Shown here: positions 5,766 to 59,842 of the stretch, piece by piece
Numbering within the stretch: position 1 is the stretch's first letter
How the letters are laid out: each line of letters begins with the position of its first letter
Notes under the pieces: model-generated
Told to the model about the DNA's origin: nothing
The model's input: only the letters and a program-made list of their open reading frames with translations
Database searches by the model: none
Assembly (NCBI GenBank): GCA_030390025.1
Contig: JASTWF010000328.1
Coordinates: 248,001-312,000, forward strand
Origin: Squalus acanthias
Taxonomy: Eukaryota
Length of the DNA: 64,000 nucleotides
Direction: 5' to 3'
Program-made: the position numbers and the translations under genes

Positions 5766-5769
5766 CTCT

Positions 5770-7333: not shown

Positions 7334-7429
7334 AGCATCATAATCTGGGAACGCCTGTCACCACCATGGCTGAAGGTCCAGACAGGGGAGAAGATCCAAC
7401 ATCTTCAACAAGAATGAGGAGGGACACAG
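7334..7429 (+). CDS. NLR leader exon 1A (ATG 7366; [21 protein letters not shown])
   Basis: tttttacag acceptor, ccaccATGG Kozak, CAG|gtagat donor; identical to exon 1B. Confidence 0.75.
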
Positions 7430-7529
7430 GTAGATTCACAAAATACTTTAAATACAATTTCTGTCCCGACAAAGGGTCCAGATCTCGTGCCTGAACCTGT
7501 AGCTCATACAGGAAGAGGGAACAGGACAG

Positions 7530-8480
7530 GGGCTGAGTACAAAGAGGGGAGTGAGTGACCATCTAGAGGGACACTGCAGTCACAGGTGGAGGAAGCCCCT
7601 GAGTACTGGAACTGTCCAATGGATACCTGGCTTTGGCTCTGTAAGTTGGATAGAGACAGTGACTCAGAGGATCGTCTTCCTGAGCAACAGTGTGGCACCA
7701 GAGAGCAGGAGGCCACCCAGCGGGGCGAGAGTGAGAGGCAGGTGGGGCACAGGAATAGGAGAGCGATACTGGTGGCAGATTGTATAGTCGGGGGAATAAA
7801 CAACCGCTTCTGTACCCCTGAGCAGGTCCTGAATAGTTAGTTACCTCCCTGGTGCCAGTGGGAATAACATCTTTGACCGGGTGGGACCACCTCTGGGAAG
7901 CAAGGGAGAGCAGTAAATAGCCATGTTCGGAACCAGTAACACGGATAGAAATACCTTTATAGAGGGACTATTAAGACTGAGGCACAAAACTAAGAAACCA
8001 GGCCTCAAGCTGTTGATCTCCAGATTGTTTTGCACTGGGCTGCTTAATACGGGTAATATGAGGCAGGTCATTGTGTGGCTGAAGGGCTGGAGCAGGAGGG
8101 GAGCGTTCACGTTCTTGGGGCACTAGAGTGAGTTCCGATGGAAGGGAAGGGACGACCGGCATCTGTACCGACCAACAATAATGGTTTTACAGAAAAGGTG
8201 AATGGAGCAGTGGGAGGGTATCAGGGGATGTGACTGGAGATTGGGAAATATCCGGATCAGAGACGAGAGAGCGTAATTAATAAAAATGCTGGAGTTGAAA
8301 CAGAAGATTTAAGAAATAGTGAAAAGTTATTGGCAAGAAAAAGGAAAGAAGATTTGAAATAGTGAGAGATAAAGTTGAGTTTTTAAAAAGAAGAAACTGG
8401 GACAAGTCAACATTCCAAATGTTGGAGCTAGTATTGAGTTGTGTATGTGAGTGTACAAATCATTCCAAACATTCAGAAGC
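7530..8480 (+). mobile_element. Old CR1-type ORF1 (esterase-like) relic in NLR intron 1
   Basis: [19 protein letters not shown] resembles RAIVIGDSIVRGIDRRFC; related copies at about 9650, 25600 and 37010. Confidence 0.55.
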
Positions 8481-11203: not shown

Positions 11204-11370
11204 ATCCGAAGTCGACAATCAATAAGTTCTTCACAAAGTGCGACGATTACCAGCGGTTCCAGTTGACGAAATTCTACCGGGACAGACTGCAACAGGCGGT
11301 TGAAGAGGGTGTGGAGAGACTCGGTCTCTGGTTAACAGCCGAGGACCATTTCAGTGGGCAAGAGTATCAC
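11204..11370 (+). CDS. NLR exon 2A (N-terminal half of CARD-like domain)
   Basis: cacag acceptor, gtaagt donor; 167 nt and open, same length as exon 2B; DPKSTINKFFTKCDDYQ...HFSGQEYH. Confidence 0.8.
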
Positions 11371-16233: not shown

Positions 16234-16384
16234 AAAGTCACTGAGCTCGCGGAGAAGGGAAACCAAGCGGACAGTTCCGAACTACTCCTAAAACTGGTGA
16301 TGGAGAAAGGCTCTCGGGCCCGAAGTGTGATGTGGGAATCCTTTGTGAAAATGGACAAAATACTGAATGAAATGCAGGAACTTG
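16234..16384 (+). CDS. NLR exon 3A (C-terminal half of CARD-like domain; in-frame 21-nt deletion relative to 3B). No exon 4 or NACHT of its own follows.
   Basis: tttacag acceptor, G|gtacgg donor; [50 protein letters not shown]. Confidence 0.8.
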
Positions 16385-16407
16385 GTACGGTAAAAACACA
16401 CACTGAC

Positions 16408-19260: not shown

Positions 19261-19689
19261 GCTGAGGTGGGAGGATTCTCCTGTGGAGCATAATCACCGG
19301 CTTGTACCGTTTGGGCCCAATAGCCTACTTCTGTTCTGTACATTCTGTGTAATTCTGTGTCAAGTGGGAGGCCAAAACATCACATTTTCTGAAGCAGTTT
19401 TGTAAAACAGAACTATTGGAAGCTTTGTTCTTATTTTGAAGCCTGCAACAAGTGAACTCCTCCAGTGGAACTGGAGATTCCCGTCACCCAGCTAGAGCAT
19501 GTAGAATGTTCTGCAACTTGAAATGAGTTTAACCGTTTCTAAACTATTAAACTACAAATGGGAATTGTGTACTTCAGAGGAGAGAGTTTGATCAAAGAGA
19601 CTCGCCCAGTTTGACACGTGGGTGAAGAGTTTGACATGTTTATCTCCATCTCCCCATCTCCGCTCAGTGTTATGTCGCCTCCCGAAGCT

Positions 19690-20968
19690 CTGCCGAACTT
19701 TCTCACAACTCCATGTTTCCGCTCCTACCACAGCACTGAATTGACAATAATAAAAGTCACAAATGAAACGTTCTATGACTGACCGTGGTAAACTTTCCCT
19801 CCTCATTCTTCTCGACCTCTGCAATCTTTGACACGATCGAACACAACATCCTCCAACGCTTCACCCCCGTTGTCCAGCTCAGTGGGACTGACCTCGCTTG
19901 GCTGCACATTTTCCCGTCCAGTCGTACCCAGGGATTCTTCCTCAATGGCTTCTCTTCCTGCTCCCGGACTGTTCACACTGGAGTACCCCATTGATCGCCC
20001 CTCGCCCCCTCCTATTTCTGTTCTACATGGAGACATTATCCGAAGACAAGAGACCAGCTATCACATGCACGCTGACAACACTCTGCTCCACATCTCACCA
20101 ACTCTCTCCACCCATCCACTGCCTCTGCTTTCTCACGCTGCTTGGCTGACATCCATTCTGAGATGAGAGACATATTTCCCAAATTTAACATTTGGAAGAC
20201 CGAAGACATGGTCTACAGCCCTCGCCGCCAATTCTTTCCCCTCGCCAATGATTCCATCCCTGTCCCAGTCTGTGTCTCGGATTGAACCAGACTGTTTACA
20301 ATCTCGGCGTTCGATTTAACGCCAAGCTGAGCTTCCGACCCGATAGTCTCTCCATCACAAAGACGGCCTAAATCCAATTCCGTGGCATTATCCATCTTCG
20401 CCCCTGCATCAGCCCACCTGCTGCTGAAATCCTCATCCATGCTTTTATCACCCGGAGACCTGATTTTTCCAGTGCTCTTCGCGTCACTTTACTCCTTTCA
20501 TCCTCCGTAAACTTAACCGCATGAAAAACCCTGCTCTCCATCACCCTGTCCTTTTGAACCTACATTGGCTCCCGGTCCTTCAACACATCCAAATTAAAAT
20601 TCTCATCCTCGAGTTTAAATCCCTTCATGGTCTCATCGCTCGCTCTCTCTGGAACATCTTCCAGCCCAACAATCCTACACCTCTCTGTTCCTCCGACTCG
20701 TGCCTCTTGTGCATTTCATCCTCTCCTCCCCCCATCTATGGAGGCTGTGCCTTCGGCTGTCCCGCTTCTCTGCACTGAAATTCCCCACCTAAACCTCTCC
20801 TCCTCCCTCCTTCTTTAAGACACTCCTAAAACTCACTTATTTGACTAATCTCTGACCAAACTTCCTTCTACCCGCTTTATTCAGCGGCCACCTTTTGTCT
20901 GATTCAGCTGTGAGGCGCCTTGCGATGTTTTTAGATGTTAAAAGCGCTGTAGAAATGTAAGATGTTGT
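19690..20968 (+). mobile_element. L2-type LINE 3' half, degraded
   Basis: SAIFDTIEHNILQR; HPVLLNLHWLPV; tail gttaaaagcgctgtagaaatgtaagatgttgttg. Confidence 0.8.
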
Positions 20969-21244
20969 TGTGTGTTTATTGTACTCGTGTCAGCGTGAGT
21001 GACACAGCAGGTAACTGAATCTTAAAAGTTTTCAAACTTAGTTACAGCTTAATTCTGGAGAATAACTTCAACTATATTTTGGAAAAATTACTGTTCCTGG
21101 ACTGAATCACATTTCCATTTCCACAGTGGGGAAAGGAAAGGACGCTGACTGAGAGTTTGATTGGGCACACACACAGTGAAACACGCGCACAAGTGGAGAA
21201 TATTCACTGTAAAACAACAGTCAAATCTACCACTTATAGTAGTG

Positions 21245-23665
21245 ATAATGGGAGACTTAATTATCCTAATATAGACTGGGATAGTAATCCTGAAAAGGGC
21301 AGAGACGGGGAAGAATGTCTGAAGTGTGTTCAGGAGAACTTTCTTGAGTGCTACGTTTCAGGCCCAGCGACGAAGGAGGCATTGGTGGATCTGGTTCTGG
21401 GTAATTAGGTGTGTCAAGTGGAGCAAGTGTCAGTAGGTGACCATTTAGGGAACAGTGATCATAGTATCATAAGGTTTAGATTAGCTAGGGAAAAGGACAG
21501 GGAGCAGTCTAGAGTAAAAAATAATTAATTGGCGGAAGGCAAATTTCAGTGGGTTGAGAATGGATCTGGCCCGGGTAAATTGGAATCAAATATTGGCAGG
21601 CAAAAGGCTGCTTTTAAAGAGGAGATGGTTCGAGTACAGTCGAGGTACTTTCTCACGAGTGGGAAAGGTAGGGCAACCAAAATCAGAGATTCCTGGATGA
21701 CGAAAGAGACAGAGTAAGATGAAGCAGAAAAAGGATGTCAGGTTGAACCAGGCTAAATATAGAAAGTTCAGACGGGAAGCGAAAAAGGAAATAAGAGGGG
21801 AAAAGAGAGAGTCTGAGAATAGATTGGCAAGTAACATAAAAGAAATCCAAAAGTCTTCTATAGTTATATAAATAATAAACCGGTAGTAAGAGGACGGGTG
21901 GGGCCGATTAGGGATCAAAATGGAGACCTACGCATGGAGGCAGAGGGCGTGGCTGAGATATTGAATGAGTACTTTGCATGTGTCTTTACCAAGGAAGAAG
22001 ATGCTGCCAAAGTCATAGTGAAAGAGGAGGTAGTCGAGATACTGGATGGGATAAAAATTGATAAAGAGGAGGTACTAGAAAGGCTGGCTTTACTTAAAGT
22101 AGATAAGTCACCAGGACCCAATGCAATGCATCCTAGGATGCTGTGGGAGGTAACGGTGGAAATTGCAGAGGTACTGGCCATAATCTTCCAATCCTCCTTG
22201 GATACGGGGCTGGTTCCAGAGTACTGGAGAATTGCAAATGTTACACCCTTGTTCAAAAAATGGAGTAAGGATAAACCCAGCAACTACAGGCCAGTCAGTT
22301 TAACCTCGGTAGTGGGGAAACTTTTAGAAACGATAATCCGGGACGAAATGAACAGTCACTTGGACAAGTATGGATTAATTAAGGAAAGCCAGCACGAATT
22401 TGTTAAAGGGAAACCGTGTTTAACTAAATTGAGTTGTTTGATGAGGTAACAGAGAATGTTGATGAGGGCAATGCTGATGATGTGTACATGGACTTCCAAA
22501 AGGCGTTTGATAATTGGCTTGCCAGAAAAGTTGAAGCCCATGTAATAAAAGGGGCAGTGGCAGCATGTATACGAAATTGGCTAAGTGAGAGGACACATAT
22601 AGTATTGGTGAACGGTTGTTTTTCGGACTGGAGGAAGGTACACAGTGATGTTCCCCAGGGATTGGTGATAGGACCACTGCTTTTCTTGATATATATTAAT
22701 GACGTAGACTTAGGTGTACAGGTGTACAGTTTCAAAATTTGCAGATGACACAAAACTTGGAAGTATACTGAACAGTGATGAGTATAGTGATAGAATTCAA
22801 GAATACATAGACAGGCTGGTGGAATGGGCGGCCACGTGGCAGAAGAAATTTATTGCAGAAAAGTGCGAAATGATATATTTTGATTCGAAGAACGAGGAGA
22901 GCAATATAAACTAAACGGAACAATTCTAAAGGGCGTGCATGAACAGAGACACCTGGGGTATATGTGCACAATTCGTTGAATGTGGCATGGCAGGTTGAGA
23001 AAGGGGTTAAAACAGCATACGCGATCCTGGGCTTCATAAATAGAGGTATAGAGTTCAAAAGCAAGGAAGTAATGATGAACCTTTATATAAAAACTGGTTC
23101 TGCTTCAACTGCAGCATTGTGTCCAATTCTGGGCACCGTACTTTAGGAAGGATGTGAAGGCCTTAGAGAAGGCGCAGAGAATATTTACGAGAATGGTTCC
23201 AGAGATGAGGGACTTCAGTTACATGGATAGACTGGAGAAGCTGGGTTTGTTCTCCTTAGAGCAGAGAAGGTTGAGAGGAAATTTGATTGAGGTGTTCAAA
23301 ATCATGAGGGGTCTCCACAGCGTAGATGGAGAGAAACTGTTCCCATTGGCGGTAGGGTCGAGAACCAGAGGACACAGATTTACGATGATTGGCAGAAGAA
23401 TCAAAGGCGACATGAGGAAAAGCTGTTTTACGCAGCGAGTGGTTAGGATCTGGAATGCACTGCCTGAAAGGGTGGTGGAGGCTGATTCAATCGTGGCTTT
23501 TAAAAGGAATTGGATAAGTACCCGAAGGAAAAAAATGCAGGGCTGCGGGAAAAGTGTGGGGGAGTGGGATTGGCTGAAGTGCTCTTGCAGAGAGTCGGCA
23601 CGGGCTCGACGGGCCGAATGGCCTCCTTCTGTAACCATTCTATGATTCTATCTTTCTATGATTCT
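21245..23665 (+). mobile_element. CR1 LINE ORF2 (end of EN, RT, 3' UTR), frameshifted
   Basis: [27 protein letters not shown]; tail attctatgattcta repeats. Confidence 0.93.
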
Positions 23666-24329
23666 ACATGGCACGGGCTCATTAGTCAGGTGCTGACACC
23701 ATGAGAGATATGGTCAATACATTCAAATAGAAGCACCAACCAGGACACATCTCCATGAACACACGGACAATGTCACTGCCCATAGAGACCAGAGGGTTCA
23801 CACCCAGATATATGTTGTGTTTGGATATATATCATATTCATAAACTACCAGAATTTAATATCAAAACTCAACAAATCAAAAATATTAAAAACAAACCTGT
23901 GAATAAAAATAATACAACACGCCCACACTGTGTAAAACCGAGTGAAGGATCATATAGTTCATCAATGATCACCCGCTTGTTATTTCCCTGCAGAATATTC
24001 TCTACTCCAGTAATAAGGCTGGTTTTGGCCTGCACTGTGCGAGTAAATCTCACCAATAGGCGCTCCCAGTGCAGAGTCTGGGCCGACAGGAGCCCGTCTG
24101 GAACTCGGTTGTGGAGATCAGCGGGACTCTCTGGATTTCACTGGGCAGCTGTCTGTGTCACACCTGATGTGGAGAGTTGATCGTAACACTCGGGAAATGC
24201 TCGATCCCGGAGCTAACAGCTGTTGTACTGATGGGGGAGGAGGGACTTAATATCATGTTTAACCAGGCAACGTTCTCCTTCTCATTTTAATATTTCCATC
24301 TAACTCTCCTGTTAATATATTTGTTACAG

Positions 24330-24425
24330 AACATCAGAATCTGGGAACGCCTGTCACCACCATGGCCGAAGGTCCAAACAGGAGAGAAGATCCAATATCT
24401 TCAACAAGACTGAGTATGGACACAG
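24330..24425 (+). CDS. NLR leader exon 1C (ATG 24362; MAEGPNRREDPISSTRLSMDT)
   Basis: ttgttacag acceptor, ccaccATGG, CAG|gtgggt donor; 96 nt like exons 1A and 1B. Confidence 0.7.
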
Positions 24426-25285: not shown

Positions 25286-25287
25286 TA

Positions 25288-33300: not shown

Positions 33301-34080
33301 CGCGCCACAGAAGTGCCAGGCAATGACTATCTCCAACAAGCGAGAGTCTAACCATCGCCCCTTGACATTCAATGGCATGACCATCGCCGAATCCTCCACT
33401 ATCAACATCCTTGTGGTCACCATTAACCAGAAATTTAACTGGACCAGCTACATAAATACTGTGGCAATAAGGGCAGGTCAGAGGCTAGGTATTCTGCGGC
33501 GAGTGTCTCACCTCCTGACTCCCCAAAGCCTTTCTACCATCTACAAGGCACAAGTAAGGAGTGTAATGGAATACTCTCCACTTGCTTGGATGAGTGCAGC
33601 TCCAACAACACTCAAGAAGCTTGACACCATCAAGGACAAAGCAGCCCGCTTGATCGGCACCCCATCCAACACCTTAAACATTCACTCCCTCCACCACCGG
33701 CGCACCGTGGATGCAGTGTGTACCATCGACAAAATGCACTGCAGCAACTCGCCAAGGCTTCTTCGGCAGCACCTCCCAAACCCGCGACCTCTTCCACCTA
33801 GAAGGACAAAGGAAGCGGGCGCGTGGGAACACCACCACCTCCAAGTTCCACTCCAAATCACACACCATCCTGACTTAAAAGTATATCGCCAATCCTTCAA
33901 CGTCGCTGGGTCAAAATCCTGGAACTCCCTACCTAACAGCACTGTGGGAGTACCTTCACCACACGGACTGCAGCGGTTCAAGAAGGCGGCTCACCACCAC
34001 ATTCCCAAGGGCAATTAGGGATGTGCAATAAATGCTGGCCTTGCCAGCGACGCCAGATGCCATTAGCGAATTAAAAAAAA
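27381..34080 (+). mobile_element. Apparently full-length family-2 LINE (~3.3 kb: tRNA-like head, one EN-RT ORF with stops, A-tail), split by a CR1 insertion at 28072-31507
   Basis: EN motif PDKVILTESYL (ORF 27834) continues after 31508 into YRPP, GDFNVHH, LDLVL, SDH, then RT ORF 32384..34018 (FADD). Confidence 0.85.
28072..31507 (+). mobile_element. CR1 LINE (end of ORF1, full ORF2 span, 3' tail), nested insertion
   Basis: GITETWL, YRP, GDFN, SDH, GVPQGS-like, FADDTKL; tail ttctatgtttctatgttt; flanks tcatggct / tcatgcct are TSD-like. Confidence 0.93.
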
Positions 34081-37000: not shown

Positions 37001-38030
37001 AACAGGACAGGGGCTGAGTACAAAGAGGGGAGTGAGTGACCATCTAGAGGGACACTGCAGTCACAGGTGGAGGAAGCCCCTGAGTACTGGAACTGTCCAA
37101 TGGATACCTGGCTTTGGCTCTGTAAGTTGGAAAGAGACAGTGACTCAGAGGATCGTCTTCCTGAGCAACAGTGTGGCACCAGAGAGCAGGAGGCCACCCA
37201 GCGGGGCGAGAGTGAGAGGCAGGTGGGGCACAGGAATAGGAGAGCGATACTGGTGGCAGATTGTATAGTCGGGGGAATAAACAACCTCTTCTGTACCCCT
37301 GAGCAGGTCCTGAATAGTTAGTTACCTCCCTGGTGCCAGTGGGAATAACATCTTTGACCGGGTGGGACCACCTCTGGGAAGCAAGGGAGAGCAGTAAATA
37401 GCCATGTTCGGAACCAGTAACACGGATAGAAATACCTTTATAGAGGGACTATTAAGACTGAGGCACAAAACTAAGAAACCAGGCCTCAAGCTGTTGATCT
37501 CCAGATTGTTTTGCACTGGGCTGCTTAATACGGGTAATATGAGGCAGGTCATTGTGTGGCTGAAGGGCTGGAGCAGGAGGGGAGCGTTCACGTTCTTGGG
37601 GCACTAGAGTGAGTTCCGATGGAAGGGAAGGGACGACCGGCATCTGTACCGACCAACAATAATGGTTTTACAGAAAAGGTGAATGGAGCAGTGGGAGGGT
37701 ATCAGGGGATGTGACTGGAGATTGGGAAATATCCGGATCAGAGACGAGAGAGCGTAATTAATAAAAATGCTGGAGTTGAAACAGAAGATTTAAGAAATAG
37801 TGAAAAGTTATTGGCAAGAAAAAGGAAAGAAGATTTGAAATAGTGAGAGATAAAGTTGTGTTTTTAAAAAGAAGAAACGGGGACAAGTCAACATTTCAAA
37901 TGTTGGAGCTAGTATTGAGTTGTGTATGTGAGTGTACAAATCATTCCAAACATTCAGAAGCATGAGAGATGTGATCTAGTATCTACAAGACAGGGCCTTG
38001 GTTTTCACAGGACTCAGAGGGAGATGTTTC
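34081..38030 (+). repeat. Near-identical segmental duplicate of ~4422-8550, including the leader exon
   Basis: Long exact matches; spurious ORFs are almost identical (e.g. 7841..8110 vs 37322..37591). Confidence 0.95.
36815..36910 (+). CDS. NLR exon 1B (ATG 36847)
   Basis: Acceptor, Kozak context and phase-1 donor. Confidence 0.8.
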
Positions 38031-41000
38031 TGGTGATAACATTTTGAGGGAGGGACTAAAACATTTGTGGACGCCAGTACCAATAAAGCGTTCTATGACA
38101 ACAAGAAGAACAACAAGAAGAACAAACTGGTGTTTATACAGCAACTTTAATGTTGAAAAACGTCTCAAGGTGCTTCACAGGAGTGTTACCAATCAAAATT
38201 TGACACCGAGTCACATAAGGAGATATATTGGACAGGTAAAGTTTAAGGAACGTCTGAAAGGAGGAGAGCGAGAGAGAGAGGCGGAGGGGTTTAGAACATA
38301 CGGGTGTTCCAGGGAGCTATGCTAAGATGGAATCCATATGTTCGCAGTTCAGCAATAGGAAGAGAGACAGCACAATTCTCAGTGGGTTTTGCAGGTCAGC
38401 GAGCAGTGGAGGTGAGATAGAGGGGGGACTGGGGAAACTAGTTGTGGAGGATGAAATTTTGGGGAGATACAAAATATTTCCTTTACTTTCTAAAAATGAT
38501 GGTGTAAGTGAGAATGTTGATGTACTAGAGGAGGATGTGGGTCCATAGTTAGAGATCACTGTAGAGAAGGATTTGGATCTGAGTAAAATAGCTGAGGTGG
38601 AAAAGTTACTTGGCTCAGAGATAATGCACCCCAGTCTGTTAGAGGAAGTCAGAGAGGAGATAGGAGGGAATGACCACAGCATTTCAACCCACGTTTAATA
38701 TCAAAAATATACAGGTGGACTGAAGGAGCCCAAGTGATGATTCTGTTCTAATGTGGAGAGTGGATTAACCTGGTAACCAGAGACCATTGTGTAGAAACTC
38801 CTCAAATGTGTTAATCCAGGTCGAATTAGCGAGCATTTAGCGATAAAGAGGATGATGATTGGAGGTTGGAACGGATTAGCTGTAGAAAAGTCGTATATGA
38901 CAATTTTACGAACAATGACGGAGAGGTAAAGACCCTTTGGTCCATCCAGACTTTCCCAGGCAATTGCGATACTTTGTCATACTTTGTTCTAGCTATCCCA
39001 AAAAAAAACATGGGTGAGGTGAAAAAAAACAGGTAAAAGTACAGGCCAATTTGGGGGATAAAAATACGGGAAATTCCTCTCCGACCCATCTAGGCGATTG
39101 AAACTAGTCCAGCAGATCAATCTTACAACATGAGGACACTTCCGGGAATTCAGTGTAAGAGGTGATGTCCGCACCAAACAGGAAGAGGTCCAGCTCTCGC
39201 CTGAAGGAATTCACCGAGTCAGTGTCCACCGCCAGAGAAGGTATCCTGTTCCAGAGGTCGACTATTCTCTGGGAAAAGAACCACCTCCTGACATCTAACT
39301 TAAATCTGGCCCTGCACAACTTAAAATGGTGACCCCTGGCCCTCCGTAAGCTATGTAATTGGAACAAACTGTCAAATGGAACACAATCGATTCCCTTCAT
39401 CATCTTATAAACCTCAATCAGATCATCCCTAAGTCTTTGCTTCTCTAAAGTGTAGAGTCCAAACTCTTAGCCTATCTTGATAACTAAGTTGCTTTATACT
39501 GGGAATTAGTCTAATGTCCCTCCTCTGCAACAGTTTCAAAGCCTCAATATCACCCACCATGTGAGGAGACCAAAACTGGACACAGTATTCCAAGTGAGGC
39601 CTTTACCAAGGTCTTGTACTAGGACAAAATAGGTCGTCTTATACCCAACTGTCCTATGAATGCAGCCCAATATCCCCTTTGTTCTTGCTATCGCTTCACG
39701 GCATTGCTCCTGTACCTTCAGAGATGTATCCAGTAGAATGCCCGGATCTTCCTTTCTCCCCCTTATTTAATGCCATGAAGGGTGTATGAATGTTGAGCAT
39801 TCGCACTGCCCACAGGCACAACACGGCACTTCTCCAAGCTAAACATCATTTGCCAGTCATGAGCTCAATCTCCCAACACATTAAGATGCAGTTTTGTTGA
39901 GATGTGACTACACAGGTTGATGGAATGTTGTACATGCGGTGTATGTGGGTTATCAGAAGGTGTTTGATAATGTGGCTCACAGGAAGCTTCAGCCGTTTGT
40001 TATACGATGAAATGTAGCAGTCTGGTCGAAAGTGGATAATGTTTAGTTTTCTTCATTTGTGTTCACAGATCCGAACTCTACAATCACTGAGTTCTTGACA
40101 AAGTGCGACGATTACCAGCTGTTCCAGTTCACGAAATTCTACCGAGACAGACTGGAACAGGCGATTGAAGGAGGGGTGGACGGTCTCAGCTCGTTATTAA
40201 AAAACGAGAGGCATTTCAGTGAACAAGAACATCGGGTGAGTGGGAGGGACACAGAATGAGTTTGGATTATCCAAACATCACAGAACTGACAGGAAATCAG
40301 ATCTTAGAATCATAGAATGTTACTGAAGAGAAACAGGCCAAATAGGAAAGAAATAGATAAAACTGAAAATATTGTGAATCTGAAACAATGGAATAAACGG
40401 ATCTTTTTCCGAGTGGCAGGCAGTGACTAGTGGGCTACCACAGGGATCGGTGCTGGGACACCAGCTATTCATGATCTAGACGAGGGAACTAGATGTAATA
40501 TCTCTAAGTTTGCAGATGACACAAAGCTGGGTGGGTGTGTGTGCTGTGAGGAGGATGCAGAGAAACTCCAGTATGATTTGGACAGGTTGGGTGATTGGGA
40601 AGATGCATGGCAGATGCAGTATAATGTGGATAAATGCGAGGTTATCCACTTTGGTGGCAAAAACAGGAAAGGCAGATTATTATTTGAACAGCAATAGATT
40701 GGGAGAAGGGGATGTGCAACGAGACCTGGGTGTCCTTGTGCACCAGTCGCTGAAAGTAAGCATGCAGGTGCAGCAGGCGGTTAAGAAGGCAAATGGTATG
40801 TTGGCCTTCATAGCGAGAGGGTTCGAGTACAGGAGCAAGGATGTCTTGCTGCAGTTGTACAGGCCTTGGTGAGACCACACCTTGAGTATTGTGTGCAGTT
40901 TTGGTCGCCTTATCTGAGGAAGGATGTTCTTGCCATGGAGGGAGTGCAGCGAAGACTCACCAGACTGATACCTGGGATGGCAGGAATGACGTATGAGGAG

Positions 41001-50000: not shown

Positions 50001-53000
50001 CCACAGTGACTCCAGCTGCAGCTCCAGATCCGAAATACAGATTTCGAGTAGCTGCAGCTGGAGACACTTCCTGCACACATGTTCGCCCTGGACACCGAAA
50101 GTGACCCTGACTTCCCACACAGCACAGGAGGAGCAGTCCACACTGTCGAGCTGCCCTGCCATGTCCTAACCTTAACTTACTCCCTTTACTTCCTTTAAAT
50201 TGAACTATATTAAATACACTAGGGACCTTACTTCACTTTAAACCCTACTTACTCTAAACTAGAGACCTTACTTTTACTTTAACGACTGGACTGTAGAAAT
50301 ACTCACCAGGTCCTACTTACCAATCAGCTCCTTCCCTAGTTGTGACGTCACTTTAGCGGTTTTGCAGTTGTTGTTGTTGTTTGACTGCTCCTGCTCTCGG
50401 ATTCTTTCCTCGGTGTAAAGTAAGAACCAACTCCTACAGAGTGAAAAGTTAGGGAAAGCAAAGGCGAAGCAAGGGAGTTCCTCCTCCCACTCCTCATCTA
50501 ACTCCCTAACTCACCCAACTCTCAGCACTCTGTTCAAACCGCACTTAGTGCAGATCGCACTGCGAAGCCTGTTTTTATCGGCCTAGTTTCCCTAATTAAC
50601 TGCGTTCAGCTGCTTTGAATTATCCTCTGCCTTCTCCGGGGCTGCCGACTCCTTTCAGGTCCGCTGTCCTCGGCCTCCCGCGCTCTTTATCCTCTGCCTT
50701 CTCCGGGGCTGCCGACTCCTTTCAGGTCCGCTGTCCTCGGCCTCCCGTGCTCTTTATCCTCTGCCTTCTCCGGGGCTGCCGACTCCTTTCAGGTCCGCTG
50801 TCCTCGGCCTCCCGCGCTCTTTATCCTCTGCCTTCTCCGGGGCTGCCGACTCCTTTCAGGTCCGCTGTCCTCGGCCTCCCGCGCTCTTTATCCTCTGCCT
50901 TCTCCGGGGCTGCCGGCTCCTTTCAGGTCCGCTGTCCTCTGCCTCCCGTGCTCTTTATCCTCTGCCTTCTCCGGGGCTGCCGACTCCTTTCAGGTCCGCT
51001 GTCCTCGGCCTCCCGCGCTCTTTATCCTCTGCCTTCTCCGGGGCTGCGGAATTCTTTCAGGTCGATGGGTCAATTCTCCGGCCCTATACATCAACAGTGA
51101 TTATTTCGATTAGTCGGCGTAATTTCTCAGGCAGTTTTCCAGCTGCTTCTCTCACTTCAGATTCGTTCCTTCCCTGCAAATGACGTTCTGACTCACTGCG
51201 GTTTTGTATCTAATAAATCACAAAGTATGACAGCAGGAAGAAATGTGAGAAACGAGTGTATCATATCGTCAATCAGTAATCTGATGTCATGTTGGACACT
51301 AAAGGACAGAGAAAACTAATCAGATTACAACTGCTGCAGATTCTCAGTGATTCCTCGCTCTCCGAGAACTATAATTCATTCCATTTCTTTGCCATTAATG
51401 ACTGAATCAAGATGCTTACAGAATATTTAGCCCCTGTTCAGAATGGATCGGTACGCGGACCTGTGACTGCTTCCTCTGCTGAAAACAACTGGGAGGTCCC
51501 ATCACTGAACAGATCCTTTCCTTCTCATTCTCAGTGTTTATCTTTCACTCCACTCCTCAATCCATTCATTACTATTCTTTACAGAAGGTCACTGATCTCG
51601 CGGAGAAGGGAAACCGGGCGGACAGTTCCAAACTTCTCCTAAATCTGGTGATGGAGAAAGGCTCTCGGGCCCGAAGGGTGATGTGGGAATCCTTTGTGAA
51701 TATGCGCCATGGGGTACCAAAGCTGGACAAAATACTGAAAGAAATGCAGGAACTTGGTACGGTAAACTCAGACACTGCATTCAATTTCACATTCAAACAA
51801 AGCATGATTTGCTATAATATTACACAGATTTGATTTCATGAATGCAAATTGATTTAAACAGGTCCTACTCCATTTGATCACATGAACATCGCACGAGGTT
51901 TATCTGAAGTACCCAGTCACCTGAAAGGTAAGGGATGACGGGGAGATTTGAAAACCTTTATTTCACATCTGAGAATCAGAATGATTGGCTGTAGCCGTTT
52001 GTTTAGAGGTTTCAGAATCTGGGAATCAGAAGTTCAAAGCCTGGAAAAATAGGATTGGACATCATTTAGATTTATCATCAATCCAAAGCTATTCTGTACA
52101 GATTCAAATTAAAATCAGACTATTTCTGAAGTTTCCTGTAAATATGCGGACGTGGCATCATTTCACTAAATCCATCTGCTGATCCATTTCAGTATTGAAA
52201 AACAATGCACAACTGTCAGGATCCTGATACACTGTGAACCCCATACACACCTGGCAGGATCCTGATACACTGTGAACCCCATACACACCTGGCAGGATCC
52301 TGATACACTGTGAAACCCCATACACACCTGGCAGGATCCTGATACACTGTGAAACCCCATACACACCTGGCAGGATCCTGATACACTGTGAAACCCCATA
52401 CACACCTGGCAGGATCCTGATACACTCTGAAACCCCATACACACCTGGCAGGATCCTGATACACTGTGAAACCCCATACACACCTGGCAGGATCCTGATA
52501 CACTGTGAAACCCCATACACACCTGGCAGGATCCTGATACACTGTGAAACCCCATACACACCTGGCAGGATCCCGATACACTGTGAAACCCCATACACAC
52601 CTGGCAGGATCCTGATACACTGTGAAACCCCATACACACCTGGCAGGATCCTGATACACTGTGAAACCCCATACACACCTGGCAGGATCCTGATACACTG
52701 TGAAACCCATACACACCTGGCAGGATCCCGATACACTGTGAAACCCCATACACACCTGGCAGGATCCTGATACACTGTGAAACCCCATACACACCTGGCA
52801 GGATCCCGATACACTGTGAAACCCAGTACACACCTGGCAGGATCCTGATACACTGTGAACCCCCATACACACCTGGCAGGATCCTGATACACTCTGAAAC
52901 CCCATACACACCTGGCAGGATCCTGATACACTGTGAAACCCCATACACACCTGGCAGGATCATGATACACTGTGAAACCCCATACACACCTGGCAGGATC

Positions 53001-56000
53001 ATGATACACTGTGAAACCCCATACACACCTGGCAGGATCCTGATACACTGTGAAACCCCATACACACCTGGCAGGATCATGATACACTGTGAAACCCCAT
53101 ACACACCTGGCAGGATCCTGATACACTGTTAAACCCCATACACATCAGCTACTATTCCAAGATACAGCAAATCTTAATACAAACCCCCGATGTGCCACGC
53201 AGAATCTCTGGGATCTTAAATTTCCTTGAGCTACATATTCAGGGTTTCCTGGACCCCTCGAATTCTGTCCCACCATAAAGTGTACGGAAAGAGATGGAGA
53301 CATGCGAAAAAGCAAAATGTTATCGCTTCTCAGCACAAAATAAGATGTCGGAAAGTGGTATTTCCGATCTGAGAAGATGTACTGATGTTCACACAATAGA
53401 ACATTAATCCGGGTAAAAATATGAGAAATGTACAATGTTCAGGGTGACTAGGAAGTTATTGGTTATTTTCATAATGTTAGTGAAATTAGCACAAAGAATA
53501 GTCGAACGAATAAGTAGAACGCCGAGTGGAACATCCATCCATTCACAGAATGTCCCACTCGCAATTCACACAATGCCCCAGAAAACCTGCCCAATGTCTG
53601 ATACAATAACAGTGGGACACTTGACCATTCACAGTCTGTCCCACTCTCAATTCACACAATGCCCCAGATAATCTGCCCAAGGTCTGATACAATAACAGTG
53701 GGACACTTGACCATTCACAGTCTGTCCCACTCGCAATTCACACAATGCCACAGAAAACCTGCCCAAGGTCTGATACAATGACAGTGGGACACTTGACCAT
53801 TCAGTCTGTCCCACTCCCAATTCACACAATGCCCCAGACTCTCACAATACCCCAGATAACCTGCCCACGGTCTGATACAGTAACAGTGGGACACTTGACC
53901 ATTCACACTCTGTCTATATCCCACTTATATCCTGTGCCCTATTTCCCAGTAAATATTAGAATCAAGTGAGGATTTGAAACAGTTCTCAGCTACTGACTGA
54001 GTTTTAATTTCTACACGCATCTCTATCGAAACTGCCAATTAAATCTTGCAATATTTTACTGAATAGTGAAATGGTATTGAGAAGTTGTATTTATGTCAAT
54101 ACAAATAATACTGAGAACCACTTTCTGACTATTCTAATTGAAGATGTGCAGCAGAAACACAAGGACACACTCCGGGAACAAACTGAAAGACTGAGATTGA
54201 ACACTATCCTAATAAAGGAGAAGGTTAAGGTTTTCCAGCTGGTTGATCGATACGCTGAGCTAACGATCATTTCTACTGTTCGAGATCGGACACTTGTAGA
54301 ACATGAACTGCTGGCAAGAGGCCGAGACCATGAAGAGTGGAGAAAGAAAGATCTCCGGAGAGAGCTGGAAAAAATCCGAACTGATCAATTGTTCCAGAGC
54401 TGTTTTTCCCAGAGAGGAGGTTTGTTCCAGAAAATAAAGGGCATCTTCCAGCGATCCAAGTCTGGGAGTTCCGCAGCAGTGAGTGAAGTGCGGGGGAGTT
54501 CAGCAGCAGTGAGCGGAGTCCCGGGGATTGGAAAAACAACAATGGTACAAAAGATTGTTCATGACTGGGCCACTGGGAAAATATACCCACACTTTCAATT
54601 TGTTTTCAGCTTTAAATTCCGGGATTTGAACGCTATTGACTGTCGAATAAACCTGAGGAATCTGATACTGGATCTGTATCCTTACTTTGGGAATATTCTT
54701 CGAGAGCTCTGGAAGAACCCAGAGGGATTGCTGTTTATATTCGATGGTCTGGATGAATTCAAGGACGGGATCGATTTTGCTGACAATCGGAGAAATACAG
54801 AACCTCAGCACAAGTGCACAGATCCTGAAGACTGGTGTGAAGTGTCTGACATTGTGTACAGTTTAATACAGCACAAGCTGCTCCCAGGATGTTCAGTGCT
54901 AGTTACCAGCCGCCCCACTGCATTACAGTTATTGGAAAAGGCTGAGATCAGTGTCTGGGCTGAAATCCTGGGATTTGTTGGTGAAGAACGGAAGGAATAT
55001 TTCAACAAGTTTTTTGAAGATCAGACGGTGGCAGCAGCTGTTTTCAAACACGTGGAGGAGAACGAGATCCTGTACACCATGTGCTACAACCCTTCCTACT
55101 GCTGGATCCTCGGTCTGTCACTGGGCCCCTTCTTTACACAAAGAGACAGGAAACAGCAGCGAGTTCCCAAGACCATCACCCAACTATATTCCTACTATAT
55201 CTACAACATTCTGAAAAACCATGGCCGAGAGATTGAAAGCCCCCGTGATGTGTTACTGAAGCTTGGTGAGATGGCCTTCACAGGAGTCTCCGAGAAGAAG
55301 ATTGTGTTTAGAAATGGAGATTTGATCAAGTACAATCTGCAACCTTCCCAGTTCCTGTCTGGGTTCATGATGGAACTTTTGGAGAGAGATGAATCTGTCC
55401 AGAGCGTGGTGTACACATTCCCGCACCTCACCATCCAAGAGTTTGTAGCCGCACTCGCACAATTCCTGACTCCAGATCCTGGGGACATCCTGAAACTCCT
55501 CAGAGAAGCCCACAGCAAGGAAGATGGGCGATTTGAGATATTTCTCCGTTTTGTTGCTGGTCTCTCCTCCCCACAGGCAGCTCGGCCCCTGGAGGAGTTT
55601 CTGGGTCCATTTCTTCATCAAACCACCTGCCGAGTGATTGACTGGGTGAAGGAGAAGGTTGAAGGACAGATTAGGAACACAGAGAGTGAAACTGGGAAAA
55701 GGAACCTCCTGAACACATTCCACTACCTGTTTGAGTCTCAGAATAAAGCACTGGCTCGGAACACAGTGGGATCTGTGAACTCACTTACATTTAGTGGATT
55801 GACATTGACCCCGATTGACTGTGCGGTCCTGTCTCACGTCATTGGACTCTGTGATACAATAGAAATCCTCGATCTACAGATCTGCAACATTCAGTGTGAG
55901 GGACTCCAGCGGCTGGGACCCGTACTGCACAAATGCCGGGAGTTGAGGTAACTGCTTATTTGTCTCTGACTGTTGGGTGAATTGTAGATCAGTCACGGAT

Positions 56001-59000
56001 TGTGTTGTTGCTCCGTAATGTAGGGAAACAAACAGTTCAGTTAAACCAGGGAGAAGCAGATTCAACACCAATATGTCCAATAATAAGATCAGTTAGTAAT
56101 TCCCTAAGGACTGGAGAATCTAAAATGGATCCTTATGAACAAGTAGGGATTTTACAGTCTTTATCGGATCAGCAAATACAGGTCACTGAGAGTCTGATAA
56201 TTTAATTACAATAAATCATATTTAATAAGGCTGGACAGCAGAATGTAAATATAAAATATAATCCGGCAGTAAAGATAAAATTAATTTAAAATATTTTCCA
56301 CATCCACCATTTCAACTGGGAACAGGAGAGAAACCCGAGTTTAAATCACTAACAGTTCGATATTTACTCCAAAACCGTGCAGGGTGTGTCTTGTCGAGGG
56401 GGTAGTTTCCTGGATTGGGAATATTGGGGAATCGGGATTTCTTTCAGCTGTTAATGTTTACAATTATTCACAGTCCTGAACATTGAGTAAAGATTGATAT
56501 TCAGGATCTTAAACCTGCCGGTGAAAAGGTTCCAATCTAACCGGAGTACAGACACACACCGGCCAGCGGTGGGGCCTCGCACACAGCGGGCGGCTCCTGG
56601 GGAAACCGGGGGCAGTGAATCCGGGAATTCCCGTAATCCGCCCCCTGTGAGTGAGGCCCCGCTCGGGGAGGGAACTTCCGAAAATTCCCCAATAACTGTC
56701 GGGCCAGTTACACCTGAAATAAATGTAGAGCCGGTTTAATGGGAATAAAGTGAGAGACTCCCCTCCCCTATAAACTAGGAGTACAGGGACATTTAAAACT
56801 TGTAACGGGACAGAATAAACTCTATTGCTTCTATTGACAAACATTCACTATAAGCCCTCTGACTCCCACAGCTACCTGGAATACACTTCCTCCCACCTCG
56901 CTTCCTGTAAGGACCCTGGTCCATTCTCCCAGTTTTTCCGTCACTGCCGCATCTGCTCTGACAATGCCACGTTCCATACTAGTGCTTCCGACATGTCTTC
57001 CTTTTTCCTCAATGGAGGATTCCCCTCTACCGTGGTGACACGGCTCTTGACCGTGTCCGTTCTATTTCCCGCACTTCTGCCCTCACCCCTGCCCCTCCCT
57101 CCCAGAACCACGATAGGTTTCCCCTTGTCCTCACCTTTCACCCCACCAGCCTCCGCATTCAATGGATCATCCTCTGCCATTTCCCCACCTCCAGCGTGAT
57201 CCCACCACCAAACACATCTTCCCCTCACCTCCCCTTTCAGCATTCTGAAGGGACCGCTCCCTCCACGACACCCTGGTCCACTCCTCAATCACCCCCAACA
57301 CCCCTTCCCCTTCCCACGGCACCTTCCCGTGCAAGCGCAGGAGATGCTACACCTGCCCTTTTACCACTTCCCTTCCCACTGTCCAGGGCCCCAAACACTC
57401 CTTCCAGGTAAAACAGTGATTTACTTGTACTTCTTGCAATTTAGTATACTGTATTCGCTGCTCACGATGCGGACTCCTCTACATTGGGGAGACCAAACGC
57501 AGATTGGGTGACCGCTTTGTGGAACACCTCCGCTCAGTCCGTAAGTGTGACCCCGAGCTTCTGGTCGCCTATCGCTTTAATTCTCTGCTCCACTCCCACT
57601 CTGATCTCTGTATTCTCGGCCTCTTACACTCTTCCAACAAAGTACAACATTAGATCGAGGAACAGCACCTCATCTTTCAATTAGGCACTTTACAGCCCTC
57701 TGGACTCAACATCGAGTTCAACAATTTCAGACTATAAACTCGGCCCCTATTTTATTTTTTTCATTATTGTTTTTCCTTTTCCCTTGTTTTTCCCTCGCAT
57801 GACAGCTGTTGATGACTTTGCCATTGCCATTCACACCTCATCTAGATTCATGTTTTGATTTTTAACTTGTCCCATTACCAGCTCCTTTTGCTTGCACCAT
57901 CATCCCTTTTGTCTTTTAATCTCTCCTGTCTTCCACCCTATCACAGACCTTCCCTTTTGTTCTTTCCTCCGCTCCCCCCACCTTTCTCTGCCCCTAAACT
58001 TGCTTAAAAATCTGTTACATCTGTAACTTTTTCCAGTTCTGACGAAGGGTCCTCGATCCTGAAACATTAACTCTGTTTCTCTCTCTATAGATGCTGCCTG
58101 ACCTGCTGGGAATTGCCAGCATTTCCTGTTTTTATTTCAGCATAAATTCTCCGTGTTATATAAAATCCTGGGGGACTGATTTTACAGCAGCAGTTAGCGC
58201 CGTTTCACAATATAACTCACCCCGAGATATTATACAGATTAATATAATGCACAGAGTATAAAGTACAGGGAATCACCGCTTTATCATTTAATTCTGGGAA
58301 AATCACCCCATTCCCATAAAATCCGGGAATTAAGGAGCAGCAGAAATGAGACAAGTTTCTCCAAACATGACGGGGCCGGTCACTGAGCTCCAAGAGGGTA
58401 ATTCTGATCATCAGGGAATGAGACCGGACTGAGGGACACCCGGCCCGCCACCGACCCCACCCGACCCGACCCGCCCCCGACCCGCCACCGGCCCCACCCG
58501 ACCCGCCCCCGGCCTGCCTCCGACCCCGGTCCCTCCCGACCCGCCTCCGGGCCCTCCCGACCCGCCTCCGACCCTGTCCCCACCCGACCCGCCACAGACC
58601 CCGGCCCCACCCGACCCGACCCCGGCCCCACCCGAACCGACCCCGGACCCACCCGACCCACCACCGACCCCGGCCCCACCCGACCCGCCACCGACCCCGG
58701 CCCGACCCGACCCCCGGCCCCACCCGACCCGCCCAGGGGGGAAATCGCGGGGGGAAACCGGATTATTAATGTCGGGAAGGACTTTCAGTGATTGCTGTAA
58801 TATCCGAGAGAGAAAAATATATCAGATCCGGGCTTTGATTCAGTTTGTTTCTCTCTCTCTCTTTGTGTTTAGTCTGAGTCACAATGAACTGGGAGATTCA
58901 GGAATGAAACTGGTGTCTGCGGCTCTGAGGAACCCGGACTGTAAAATACAGAAACTGAGGTAAGTACCAGACTGTGTGAGATTGTGTTTATAATAACTGG

Positions 59001-59842
59001 ATGTCTGACACTGAACATTATTATTAGTATCAGTAATAGTGTTATTAATAAACTCTGGGGATTGACTCTGATTCCTGTTATTTCTCTCTCTGATCCCCAG
59101 TCTATGGTCTGTCGGTCTCACAGATTCTGGTGCCGAGGATCTCGCCTCCGCTCTCAGTACAAACCGCTCACTGACGGATCTGAACCTGAACGGCAATGAA
59201 CTGGGAGATTCAGGAGTGAAACTAGTGTCTGCGGCTCTGAGGAACCCGGACTGTAAAATACAGAAACTGTGGTAAGTACCAGACTGTGTGAGATTGTGTT
59301 TATAATAACTGGATGTCTGACACTGAACATTATTATTAGTATCAGTAATAGTGTTATTAATAAACTCTGGGGATTGACTCTGATTCCTGTTATTTCTCTC
59401 TCTGATCCCCAGGCTGGTGTCTGTCGGTCTCACAGATTCTGGTGCCGAGGATCTCGCCTCCGCTCTCAGTACAAACCGCTCACTGACGGATCTGTACCTG
59501 GGATTAAACTCCTTCACAGATCGATCTGTCCCCGCTCTCAGCCGCCTCACACTGACCTGCCGGAGTCTGGAGCGGATCGGTGAGTGTTTGTGTTAATGTT
59601 TAATGTAATAAATAAAATATCAATGGGATTCAGTCACTTTAATGGGTAATATTTGTCTGTAATTATTATTGAAATATTAACCCCAGTCTCGCGGTTATTT
59701 ACACTGATGTTCAATCTGTTTATTTCCTGTTTAATCTTTAATCTGTTTCAGGCTGGGGAACAATCGGTTCAGTTCAGACGGAGCGAGACTCCTGAGGGCG
59801 CTGCAGGGAGCAAGACCCGGATTGACAGTGACCGTTAATTGA
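36847..59842 (+). CDS. NOD-like receptor (CARD-like - FISNA-like - NACHT - LRR; NLRP3/NLRC3-like), copy B. Join 36847-36910, 40069-40235, 51585-51756, 51862-51927, 54144-55947, 58873-58959, 59101-59271, 59413-59579, 59752-59842
   Basis: Manual splice model with all introns GT-AG. Phases 1,0,1,1,2,2,2 keep one frame from ccaccATGG to exon 8; the exon 8/9 junction is 1 nt short. NACHT motifs are intact and a 171-nt LRR exon is present. Orthology cannot be assigned by eye. Confidence 0.9.
39100..39895 (-). mobile_element. CR1-type LINE 3' fragment (distinct subfamily)
   Basis: ARGHHFKL...[16 protein letters not shown]. Confidence 0.8.
40069..40235 (+). CDS. NLR exon 2B (N-terminal half of CARD-like domain)
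   Basis: cacag acceptor, gtgagt donor; [17 protein letters not shown]...HFSEQEHR. Confidence 0.88.
40390..41447 (+). mobile_element. 5'-truncated CR1, closely related to 30440-31507
   Basis: [14 protein letters not shown]; tail present; empty site in the paralogous intron near 12280. Confidence 0.92.
43294..43675 (-). mobile_element. CR1 3' fragment
   Basis: ORF 43365..43679, [13 protein letters not shown]. Confidence 0.85.
43875..45880 (-). mobile_element. Family-2 LINE, internally deleted and degraded, retaining the tRNA-like head (~45810-45880)
   Basis: Reverse-strand homology to 27381-34000. Confidence 0.8.
46141..50600 (-). mobile_element. Near full-length CR1 LINE: 5' UTR, ORF1 (Zn finger/leucine zipper + esterase), ORF2 (EN-RT); frameshifted
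   Basis: ORF1 CSSC...HVCRKC and IGTND; ORF2 [22 protein letters not shown]; (cttatgtt)n tail at 46141. The 5' boundary is approximate. Confidence 0.93.
50620..51062. repeat. 67-nt GC-rich minisatellite, ~6.6 copies
   Basis: ttatcctctgcc recurs at 50620, 50687, 50754, 50821, ... Confidence 0.95.
51585..51756 (+). CDS. NLR exon 3B (C-terminal half of CARD-like domain)
   Basis: [37 protein letters not shown]...; the LLxLVxxKG pattern resembles CARD helices 4-5. Confidence 0.88.
51862..51927 (+). CDS. NLR exon 4 (66-nt linker, [22 protein letters not shown])
   Basis: aaacag acceptor, AAG|gtaagg donor; phase 1-1, open. Confidence 0.75.
52217..53143. repeat. 39-nt minisatellite, ~24 near-identical copies
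   Basis: Unit caggatcctgatacactgtgaaaccccatacacacctgg. Confidence 0.97.
53539..53925. repeat. 86-nt tandem repeat, ~4.5 copies, with internal inverted repeat tgtcccact/agtgggaca
   Basis: ccattca recurs at 53539, 53625, 53711, 53797. Confidence 0.9.
54144..55947 (+). CDS. NLR exon 5: FISNA-like region, NACHT (NBD-HD1-WHD-HD2), first LRRs
   Basis: Walker A GVPGIGKT, Walker [11 protein letters not shown], sensor-1 [33 protein letters not shown]2 FLRFVAGL. Confidence 0.97.
56623..56690. promoter_or_regulatory. Cluster of NF-kB-like sites in a CpG-rich intronic patch
   Basis: GGGAATTCCC 56623-56632, GGGAACTTCC 56670-56679, GAAAATTCCCC 56680-56690. Confidence 0.4.
56828..58140 (+). mobile_element. 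Penelope-like retroelement 3' part (RT C-terminus, GIY-YIG endonuclease, terminal repeat)
   Basis: [48 protein letters not shown] at about 57440-57530. Confidence 0.88.
58035..58072 (+). ncRNA. Minimal hammerhead ribozyme relic in the Penelope terminal repeat
   Basis: agtt-CTGACGA-agggtc(ctc)gatcct-GAAAC-att-aact. Confidence 0.65.
58436..58735. repeat. C-rich low-complexity minisatellite (ccgac / ccggccccacccga); G-rich on the minus strand
   Basis: Visible in the sequence. Confidence 0.9.
58873..58959 (+). CDS. NLR exon 6 (87-nt LRR)
   Basis: [29 protein letters not shown]; phase 2-2. Confidence 0.92.
59101..59271 (+). CDS. NLR exon 7 (171-nt double LRR)
   Basis: [42 protein letters not shown]...; phase 2-2. 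Confidence 0.93.
59413..59579 (+). CDS. NLR exon 8 (LRR; 167 nt as written)
   Basis: [56 protein letters not shown]; gtgagt donor at 59580. Confidence 0.88.
59752..59842 (+). CDS. NLR terminal exon 9 (LRR cap)
   Basis: tttcag acceptor; the phase-2 frame reads [29 protein letters not shown]. Confidence 0.75.

What the first reader, a model, noticed from the sequence alone, without database searches (positions are those of the whole stretch)
7334..59842. Modular NLR locus: phase-compatible CARD cassettes and leader exons could give swapped-, tandem- or CARD-only receptors
Seen: two CARD-like cassettes (2A+3A and 2B+3B), each entering and leaving in phase 1, and three 96-nt leader exons (1A, 1C, 1B). 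Each leader is phase 1-1 and stop-free even upstream of its ATG ([12 protein letters not shown] or [12 protein letters not shown]). Splicing 1A-2A-3A-1C-1B-2B-3B-4...8 therefore stays in one frame, giving CARD-CARD-NACHT-LRR (~1100 aa if the exon 8/9 junction is restored). Junctions 3A->4, 3A->2B and 1C->2B are also in frame. Known: NOD2 has tandem CARDs, and CARD-only proteins (CARD16/17/18) arose by partial duplication and regulate inflammasomes. Inference: one NACHT-LRR sensor may be coupled to alternative effector domains. Phase compatibility also follows automatically from duplication, so module A may simply be a young pseudogene.
Basis: partly seen in the sequence, partly recalled or inferred. 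Interest (0 to 1): 0.8.

Follow-up and report, generated by a model that had tools for sequence, protein, structure and literature searches.

The report
Shark NLR with damaged upstream fragment
A shark immune-sensor gene is preceded by leftover front ends of its own gene copies; they could in principle be spliced on to give a receptor with two signalling domains, as annotated in rays, but here the extra domain is damaged and the layout is common debris in a family of hundreds of copies.

Summary
The exons, splice sites, phases and frames are as described; the full chain would be 1,099 aa but stops at 1,083 aa because exon 8 lacks one base. The N-terminal domain folds as a CARD in a homologue. 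Phase compatibility is inherited: this is one of about 300 paralogues, and 5 of 32 mapped units on another contig also have a second exon 2 before their NACHT exon. Module A is damaged: Leu to Arg at a site that is Leu in 291 of 296 homologous domains, a 7-residue deletion, and a CR1 LINE about 30 bases behind exon 3A. Exons 1A and 1B are identical because of a recent 2.6-kb homogenised tract. Tandem-CARD, repeated-leader and CARD-only models already exist in RefSeq for rays, some reading a leader as an internal exon, so the architecture is real in the family but not new. No run of this species was available, so the decisive junctions are untested. Verdict: most likely duplication debris before a single-CARD NLR; read-through remains possible.

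The parts
7334..7429 (+). Leader exon 1A (internal exon with the start codon at 7366); 96/96 identical to 1B
11204..11370 (+). Exon 2A, first half of CARD A; Leu17Arg at a nearly invariant site; belongs to a different exon-2 subtype from 2B (35 differences of 167)
16234..16384 (+). Exon 3A, second half of CARD A, with an in-frame 21-nt deletion across the junction of the last two CARD helices
16410..17173 (+). CR1-type LINE fragment (ORF1, GDSL/SGNH-like) that ends module A; in frame with exon 3A up to a stop at 16714-16716 if the 3A donor is not used
   Evidence: the name CR1 is recalled, Pfam gave only Lipase_GDSL_2 at E 5e-5, below its cut-off
19278..24329 (+). Upstream region of leader 1C, homologous in order to the region upstream of 1A (71-89%), so 1C carries its own 5' flank
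24330..24425 (+). Leader exon 1C; 12 copies at 97% or more in the genome; the only leader found between module A and the complete gene in the C29 plus-strand copy
32517..39092 (+). Duplicate of 2823-9502; about 0.5% different over 5819-8400, 7-17% on the 3' flank
36815..36910 (+). Leader exon 1B
   Evidence: the leader-to-exon-2 joint is seen in contigs of 4 of 4 runs from other organisms
40069..40235 (+). Exon 2B, first half of CARD B
51585..51756 (+). Exon 3B, second half of CARD B
51862..51927 (+). Exon 4, linker
54144..55947 (+). Exon 5: NACHT, winged helix, HD2; open frame
58873..59579 (+). LRR exons 6 (58873-58959), 7 (59101-59271) and 8 (59413-59579); exon 8 is one base shorter than in 5 of 5 other paralogues read
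59752..59842 (+). Last exon 9, out of frame after the 167-nt exon 8

Best explanation
The window holds one nearly complete member of the elasmobranch CARD-NACHT-LRR ('NLRP3-like') family (leader, 2B, 3B, 4-9), preceded by two 5' pieces left by segmental duplication and unequal exchange in a tandem array. Module A (1A-2A-3A) is the front end of a paralogue of another exon-2 subtype; it lost everything from exon 4 on at a CR1 LINE and its CARD has decayed. 1C is probably the older leader of gene B, and 1B a second leader kept identical to 1A by recent conversion or duplication. Gene B most likely works as a single-CARD sensor: NACHT oligomerisation would cluster CARDs that recruit a CARD adaptor or caspase (inferred from NLRC4/NLRP1-type inflammasomes, not shown). 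Frames match because all copies descend from the same symmetric exons. Shown: anatomy, lesions, copy numbers, mosaic identity. Inferred: history, lack of function, signalling mode.
For: Family size: 288, 184, 256 and 330 matches to exon-2, exon-3, leader and NACHT motifs, 0 for reversed controls. Of 32 mapped units ending in a NACHT exon on C29 0-5.6 Mb, 5 have two exon-2 copies and 8 have two or more leaders (incomplete lists). This contig has two more leader-leader-exon-2 sets with no exon 3. CARD A: Arg at a site with Leu in 291 of 296 domains (Arg in 0); 7-residue deletion matched by 1 of 296; 11 positions under 2% frequency versus 3 in CARD B. The deletion removes a Leu invariant in 30 of 30 aligned homologues and spans the junction of helices 86-102 and 104-131 of the model. 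The three module-A copies share the lesions, and one has lost two more codons. A sister gene 127-157 kb downstream is collinear with the window but lacks the 9-32.5 kb block, and its leader has lost the usual acceptor, which breaks the internal frame but not the ATG frame. 1A/1B identity lies in a 2.6-kb tract at about 0.5% difference; gene conversion and exon shuffling are described for zebrafish NLR arrays (10.1101/027151, passages).
Against: All three module-A copies keep open frames and splice sites, and both C29 copies also lie upstream of a downstream gene in the same orientation. Among them 6 non-synonymous and 3 synonymous changes (250 and 65 sites) give a ratio near 0.5, not distinguishable from neutral (p 0.40). 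Ray gene models show that tandem CARDs with an internal leader can be annotated as one transcript. No expression data for this locus.
Confidence: 0.68

Rival explanations
1. Read-through gene: transcripts started upstream of 1A run past 3A and splice to 1C, 1B, 2B or 4, giving a CARD(A)-leader(s)-CARD(B)-NACHT-LRR protein, a young shark counterpart of the tandem-CARD NLRs annotated in rays. The damaged CARD A would act as a spacer or damper.
For: All junctions in frame. 43 ray models among 299 proteins fetched have two or more domain matches. P0130, P0133, P0185, P0181, P0188 and 9 of the 14 other listed members of the P0133 cluster read a leader with its pre-ATG part between two CARDs; P0124-P0126 join exon 3 directly to exon 2. 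Module A lies upstream of a downstream gene in all three copies.
Against: CARD A lesions. Ray tandem domains in those models are full length. No shark model with two whole domains among the best 120 of 686 hits, although summed scores should rank them first. 1C has its own upstream region. The gene downstream of module A differs among the three copies.
Confidence: 0.17
2. CARD-only decoy: module A is its own short gene. With the 3A donor unused it reads into the LINE ORF1 fragment and makes a 237-aa CARD fusion that could compete for CARD partners, like mammalian COPs.
For: Open frame to the same stop in 3 of 3 copies. Domain-only RefSeq models are common in relatives: 52 of 299 fetched proteins have one whole domain and no NACHT match. 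COPs arose by CASP1 duplication and inhibit caspase-1 (PMC11630849, passages).
Against: A decoy needs an intact CARD, and CARD A is the damaged one. The LINE part differs among copies at the Gly-Asp-Ser motif. An in-frame join to a young ORF fragment has about a one-in-three chance. Domain-only models may be fragments.
Confidence: 0.08
3. Selected modular switch: regulated promoter choice and splicing couple one NACHT-LRR sensor to CARD A, CARD B or both, changing downstream signalling.
For: 2A and 2B are distinct subtypes (35 of 167 nt differ). Two Hypanus models named isoforms X1 and X2, with the same start and contig length, have three and two CARDs (P0123, P0138).
Against: Lesions in CARD A; layout not conserved between this unit, its sister unit and the C29 copies; exon 8 frameshift in gene B.
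Confidence: 0.05
4. Misassembly or haplotype duplication created the repeated modules.
For: 1A and 1B exons are identical; the contig is short (540 kb) and repeat-rich.
Against: The two 6.6-kb copies differ by indels and up to 17% on the flank; the 3A-LINE junction and the A-to-1C order recur on another contig at 94-99%.
Confidence: 0.02

Closest known systems
Shark 'NACHT, LRR and PYD domains-containing protein 3-like' RefSeq/UniRef models (e.g. P0001 Pristiophorus japonicus, P0002 Mustelus asterias, P0003 Heptranchias perlo); the NLRP-related expansion of whale shark (PMC8455134, passages) and CARD-bearing NLRP3-like proteins of white shark (PMC11258412, passages)
   Same: Up to 88% identity over the whole NACHT exon; same leader-CARD-linker-NACHT-LRR order in 92 of 120 hits; white-shark NLRP3-like proteins are reported to use an N-terminal CARD.
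   Different: Gene B has a 66-nt longer NACHT exon than a C29 paralogue and a private 1-nt deletion in exon 8; upstream fragments A and C are extra. Membership of the whale-shark clade was not tested by a tree.
Tandem-CARD NLR models of rays (Hemitrygon akajei XP_072891892.1 = P0133; Hypanus sabinus XP_059818039.1 = P0127, XP_059816992.1 = P0126; Pristis pectinata XP_051864843.1 = P0146)
   Same: Same CARD family repeated two or three times before NACHT; some models read a leader exon with its pre-ATG part internally, or repeat leaders at the N-terminus.
   Different: There the repeated domains are full length, usually with the exon-4 linker, and recur in many paralogues; here the extra CARD is damaged, lacks exon 4 and is followed by a LINE. 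RNA support of those models was not checked.
NOD2 (tandem CARDs)
   Same: Two CARDs before NACHT-LRR in the hypothetical product.
   Different: Different NLR lineage by sequence; tandem form here is hypothetical. NOD2's architecture is from the finding and a search listing (PMC3314614), not read further.
CARD-only proteins CARD16/17/18
   Same: 5' partial duplicate encoding a CARD, in a locus with segmental duplication and gene conversion (PMC11630849, passages).
   Different: COPs derive from CASP1, not from an NLR, and have tested inhibitory activity; module A is damaged and has no known 3' end or expression.

Membership tests
Elasmobranch NLRP3-like CARD-NACHT-LRR family (gene B) | NACHT, winged-helix and HD2 domains | tested here: met
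   PF05729 E 3e-37, PF17776 E 2e-17, PF17779 E 2e-13
Elasmobranch NLRP3-like CARD-NACHT-LRR family (gene B) | High identity and shared exon order with annotated members | tested here: met
   88% identity, 100% cover to best hits; exon 2-3-5 order in 92 of 120
Elasmobranch NLRP3-like CARD-NACHT-LRR family (gene B) | Intact reading frame to the family's C-terminus | tested here: not met
   167-nt exon 8 shifts the last exon; stop at aa 913 instead of 929; mutation or assembly error not resolved
CARD domain | Death-fold bundle closest to solved CARDs | tested here: met
   On homologue P0212 (pLDDT 89): best matches NLRC4 CARD Z 11.3, rmsd 2.8, 89 aligned; ARC CARD Z 10.8, rmsd 1.5, 80 aligned; CARDs rank above death domains (Z 6.9 or less) and PYD (Z 5.7). 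The window's own spliced domain was not folded.
CARD domain | Pfam CARD (PF00619) at the curated cut-off | tested here: inconclusive
   No match for single exons or 5 full-length homologues; 9 of 30 aligned homologues match weakly, best E 0.0033
Tandem-CARD NLR (NOD2-like or ray-type) | Both CARD cassettes in one spliced transcript | not testable with these tools
   No run of this species listed (best share 0.30)
Tandem-CARD NLR (NOD2-like or ray-type) | Both CARDs intact | tested here: not met
   CARD A has Leu17Arg and a 7-residue deletion
CARD-only protein (COP-like) | Own transcript and 3' end | not testable with these tools
   No RNA of this species; four AATAAA between 3A and 1C, no more than window density
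CARD-only protein (COP-like) | Binding and inhibition of a CARD partner | not tested
   needs bench assay

The most novel reading that the evidence does not exclude
Module A is transcribed and spliced into gene B, or ends in the LINE fragment, so that this locus is a tandem-CARD or CARD-decoy NLR caught in the making, showing how the multi-CARD receptors annotated in rays arise from 5' partial duplicates whose leader exons can serve as internal linkers.
Probability: 0.2. Interest if true: 0.55.

Novelty: new member of a known kind. Interest (0 to 1): 0.27.

Why it matters
For this locus, little: it is one of hundreds of copies in a birth-and-death array. The wider point is more useful. Elasmobranch NLR genes are built from symmetric phase-1 exons, so any 5' partial duplicate can be spliced in frame, and ray annotations already contain one-, two- and three-CARD forms, repeated leaders and CARD-only forms. 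My paper searches listed no study of these tandem forms. If read-through were shown here it would give a young, testable example of how CARD number changes in an innate sensor family.

Tried and rejected
RNA test: no RNA holder listed for window 16180-16760; best shares were 0.30 (runs of unknown kind) and 0.16 (guessed RNA), so none is this species. Four guessed-RNA runs from four other organisms, laid on 36700-52150 at 80% likeness, showed the leader-to-exon-2 joint in 4 of 4 and a joint from within exon 2 to the start of exon 3 (40187 to 51588, not at the donor) in 1; no exon-3-to-leader or exon-3-to-exon-2 joint was among the 15 rows shown, but 322 rows were hidden, so this is no evidence. 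Sequence search of solved structures with the domain alignment gave 3 unrelated weak hits; Foldseek gave CARDs at the top but none at E 0.001 or less. The promoter and first exon were not found: the shared upstream block is largely LINE-derived. Selection test on three module-A copies is inconclusive. A weak donor 4 bases after exon 8 would keep the frame (930 aa); noted, not supported. My first reading that the C29 plus-strand gene lacks exon 4 was wrong: a divergent exon 4 is visible. One leader was misplaced by my script and re-read. Of the 44 multi-match proteins, P0244 (shark) is one domain in two halves and P0152 (ray) looks like fused gene models. The region between the C29 minus-strand module A and its downstream gene was not fetched; its order comes from search rows only. 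Two other exon-2 pairs were only partly read (20 kb and 10 kb, no exon 3 found). Paper search returned nothing. No supplements were read.
Full report
Observation. The exon map is right. All thirteen exons have AG/GT ends at the stated places. Leaders 1A, 1C and 1B are 96 nt; cassettes 2A+3A (167+151 nt) and 2B+3B (167+172 nt) are whole numbers of codons and enter and leave in phase 1. The chains 1A-2A-3A-4..8, 1A-2A-3A-2B..8 and 1C-2B..8 have no stop. The full chain stops at residue 1,083 in exon 9 because exon 8 is 167 nt; with 168 nt it would be 1,099 aa. Exon 8 has the extra base in 5 of 5 other paralogues read, so the loss is private to this copy, by mutation or assembly error; it changes only the last exon (913 instead of 929 aa).

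What the gene is. Exon 5 carries NACHT, winged-helix and HD2 domains and is up to 88% identical to shark 'NLRP3-like' models; 1,223 proteins passed E 1e-50 among 8,000 candidates. Pfam does not call the N-terminal domain in the window's exons or in five homologues and only weakly in 9 of 30 short homologues. A model of homologue P0212 built on a 30-sequence alignment (pLDDT 89) matches solved CARDs best: NLRC4 Z 11.3, rmsd 2.8 over 89 residues; ARC Z 10.8, rmsd 1.5 over 80. So the domain is a divergent CARD, by transfer from a homologue. [quoted passage not shown]

Is the modular layout more than duplication gives? No. Motif searches of the 3.7-Gb genome give 288 exon-2, 184 exon-3, 256 leader and 330 NACHT matches, and none for reversed controls. 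Nine of ten leader copies read are 96 nt, same phase and stop-free; the tenth, in a sister gene, has lost the usual acceptor, which breaks internal use but leaves the ATG frame. Ten random codons lack a stop 62% of the time. From the listed rows for contig C29, 0-5.6 Mb, I built 34 groups, 32 ending in a NACHT exon: 5 have two exon-2 copies and 8 have two or more leaders (lists incomplete, so a missed NACHT exon could inflate this). The window's own contig has two more leader-leader-exon-2 sets with no exon 3 in the 264 kb read.

History. A sister gene further along the contig is collinear with the window from about -3 kb to 9 kb and again from 32.5 to 53 kb, without the block holding 2A, 3A and 1C. 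The stretch 2823-9502 is repeated at 32517-39092; over 5819-8400 the copies differ by about 0.5%, less than either differs from the sister, and by 7-17% on the 3' flank. That is a recent homogenised tract and explains the identity of 1A and 1B. Exon 2A belongs with the orphan exon-2 copies (12 differences) and not with 2B (35). The region upstream of 1C is homologous in order to that upstream of 1A, and in a C29 copy 1C is the only leader found between module A and a complete gene. So 1C is probably gene B's older leader and module A a separate truncated paralogue (inference). Gene conversion and exon shuffling are described for zebrafish NLR arrays (10.1101/027151, passages).

State of module A. 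Homology to gene B ends about 30 bases after the 3A donor, where a LINE ORF1 fragment starts (GDSL-like match E 5e-5; the name CR1 is recalled). CARD A has Arg where 291 of 296 homologous domains have Leu and none has Arg, and a 7-residue deletion seen in 1 of 296; 11 positions carry states under 2% frequency against 3 in CARD B. The deletion removes a Leu invariant in 30 of 30 aligned homologues at the junction of the last two CARD helices. Two more copies of module A exist on C29 (99% and 94%); all three share both lesions and the LINE junction, keep open frames and splice sites, and one has lost two further codons. Their 6 non-synonymous and 3 synonymous differences do not separate neutrality from constraint (p 0.40). 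The recurrence on another contig argues against misassembly.

Searching with a single domain, the top ranks are ray proteins with two or three copies. Among 299 fetched proteins, 44 have two or more domain matches: 43 from rays (Hypanus, Hemitrygon, Mobula, Pristis) and one shark protein with one domain in two halves. Several read a leader exon, pre-ATG part included, between two CARDs (P0130, P0133, P0181, P0185, P0188 and 9 of 14 other listed members of the P0133 cluster), others join exon 3 straight to exon 2 or repeat leaders; 52 of the 299 have one whole domain and no NACHT match. No shark model with two whole domains was among the best 120 of 686 hits. Earlier notes of this scan report arrays of tandem CARD exons elsewhere in this genome; I did not test them.

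Expression. No run of this species was listed. Contigs from four runs of other organisms show the ordinary leader-to-exon-2 joint in 4 of 4, which supports the gene model at family level only. The junctions that decide the question are untested.

Verdict. Most likely (0.68) a single-CARD NLR preceded by decaying 5' fragments. Read-through to a tandem form (0.17), a CARD-LINE short product of 237 aa (0.08), a selected switch (0.05) and misassembly (0.02) are the rivals. The locus is a new member of a known, annotated family; the tandem architecture is not new to annotation, though my searches listed no paper on it. Interest 0.27.

Noticed in passing
window 16234-16716 (+): Exon 3A reads in frame through its donor into a LINE ORF1 (GDSL/SGNH-like) fragment; 1A-2A-3A plus read-through gives 237 aa, with the same stop in all three genomic copies.
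   Followed up: partly
P0121-P0153, P0158, P0162, P0180-P0188 (ray RefSeq models): Stingray, manta and sawfish NLR models carry two or three tandem CARDs, up to eight repeated leader peptides, and isoform names that differ in CARD number; no paper on them in my searches. Probably more interesting than this locus.
   Followed up: partly
window 59579-59583: A weak GT four bases after the exon 8 donor would keep exon 9 in frame (930 aa).
   Followed up: partly
window 54144-55947: The NACHT exon is 66 nt longer than in a C29 paralogue, with a short duplicated peptide just before the Walker A motif that 119 of 120 homologues lack.
   Followed up: partly
G000:C2539:229601-234602 and 374781-389082: Two further leader-leader-exon-2 fragments with intact splice sites and no exon 3, inside a roughly 150-kb segmental duplication.
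   Followed up: partly
G000:C2539:412150-412245: The sister gene's leader exon has its acceptor AG changed, with another AG two bases on.
   Followed up: partly
window 60228-64000: A tandem repeat of about 1.85 kb at 92% identity lies just downstream of the gene.
   Followed up: no
window 12642-13136, 17174-19264, 50620-51063, 52196-53144: Minisatellite arrays in introns and between modules, several shared with the sister unit.
   Followed up: no
P0289 (Callorhinchus model): The same CARD-like domain precedes a NACHT-exon start in a chimaera protein (53% identity), although a preprint (10.64898/2026.07.03.736391, passages) reports no CARD-containing NLR in that species; the divergent CARD escapes Pfam.
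   Followed up: no
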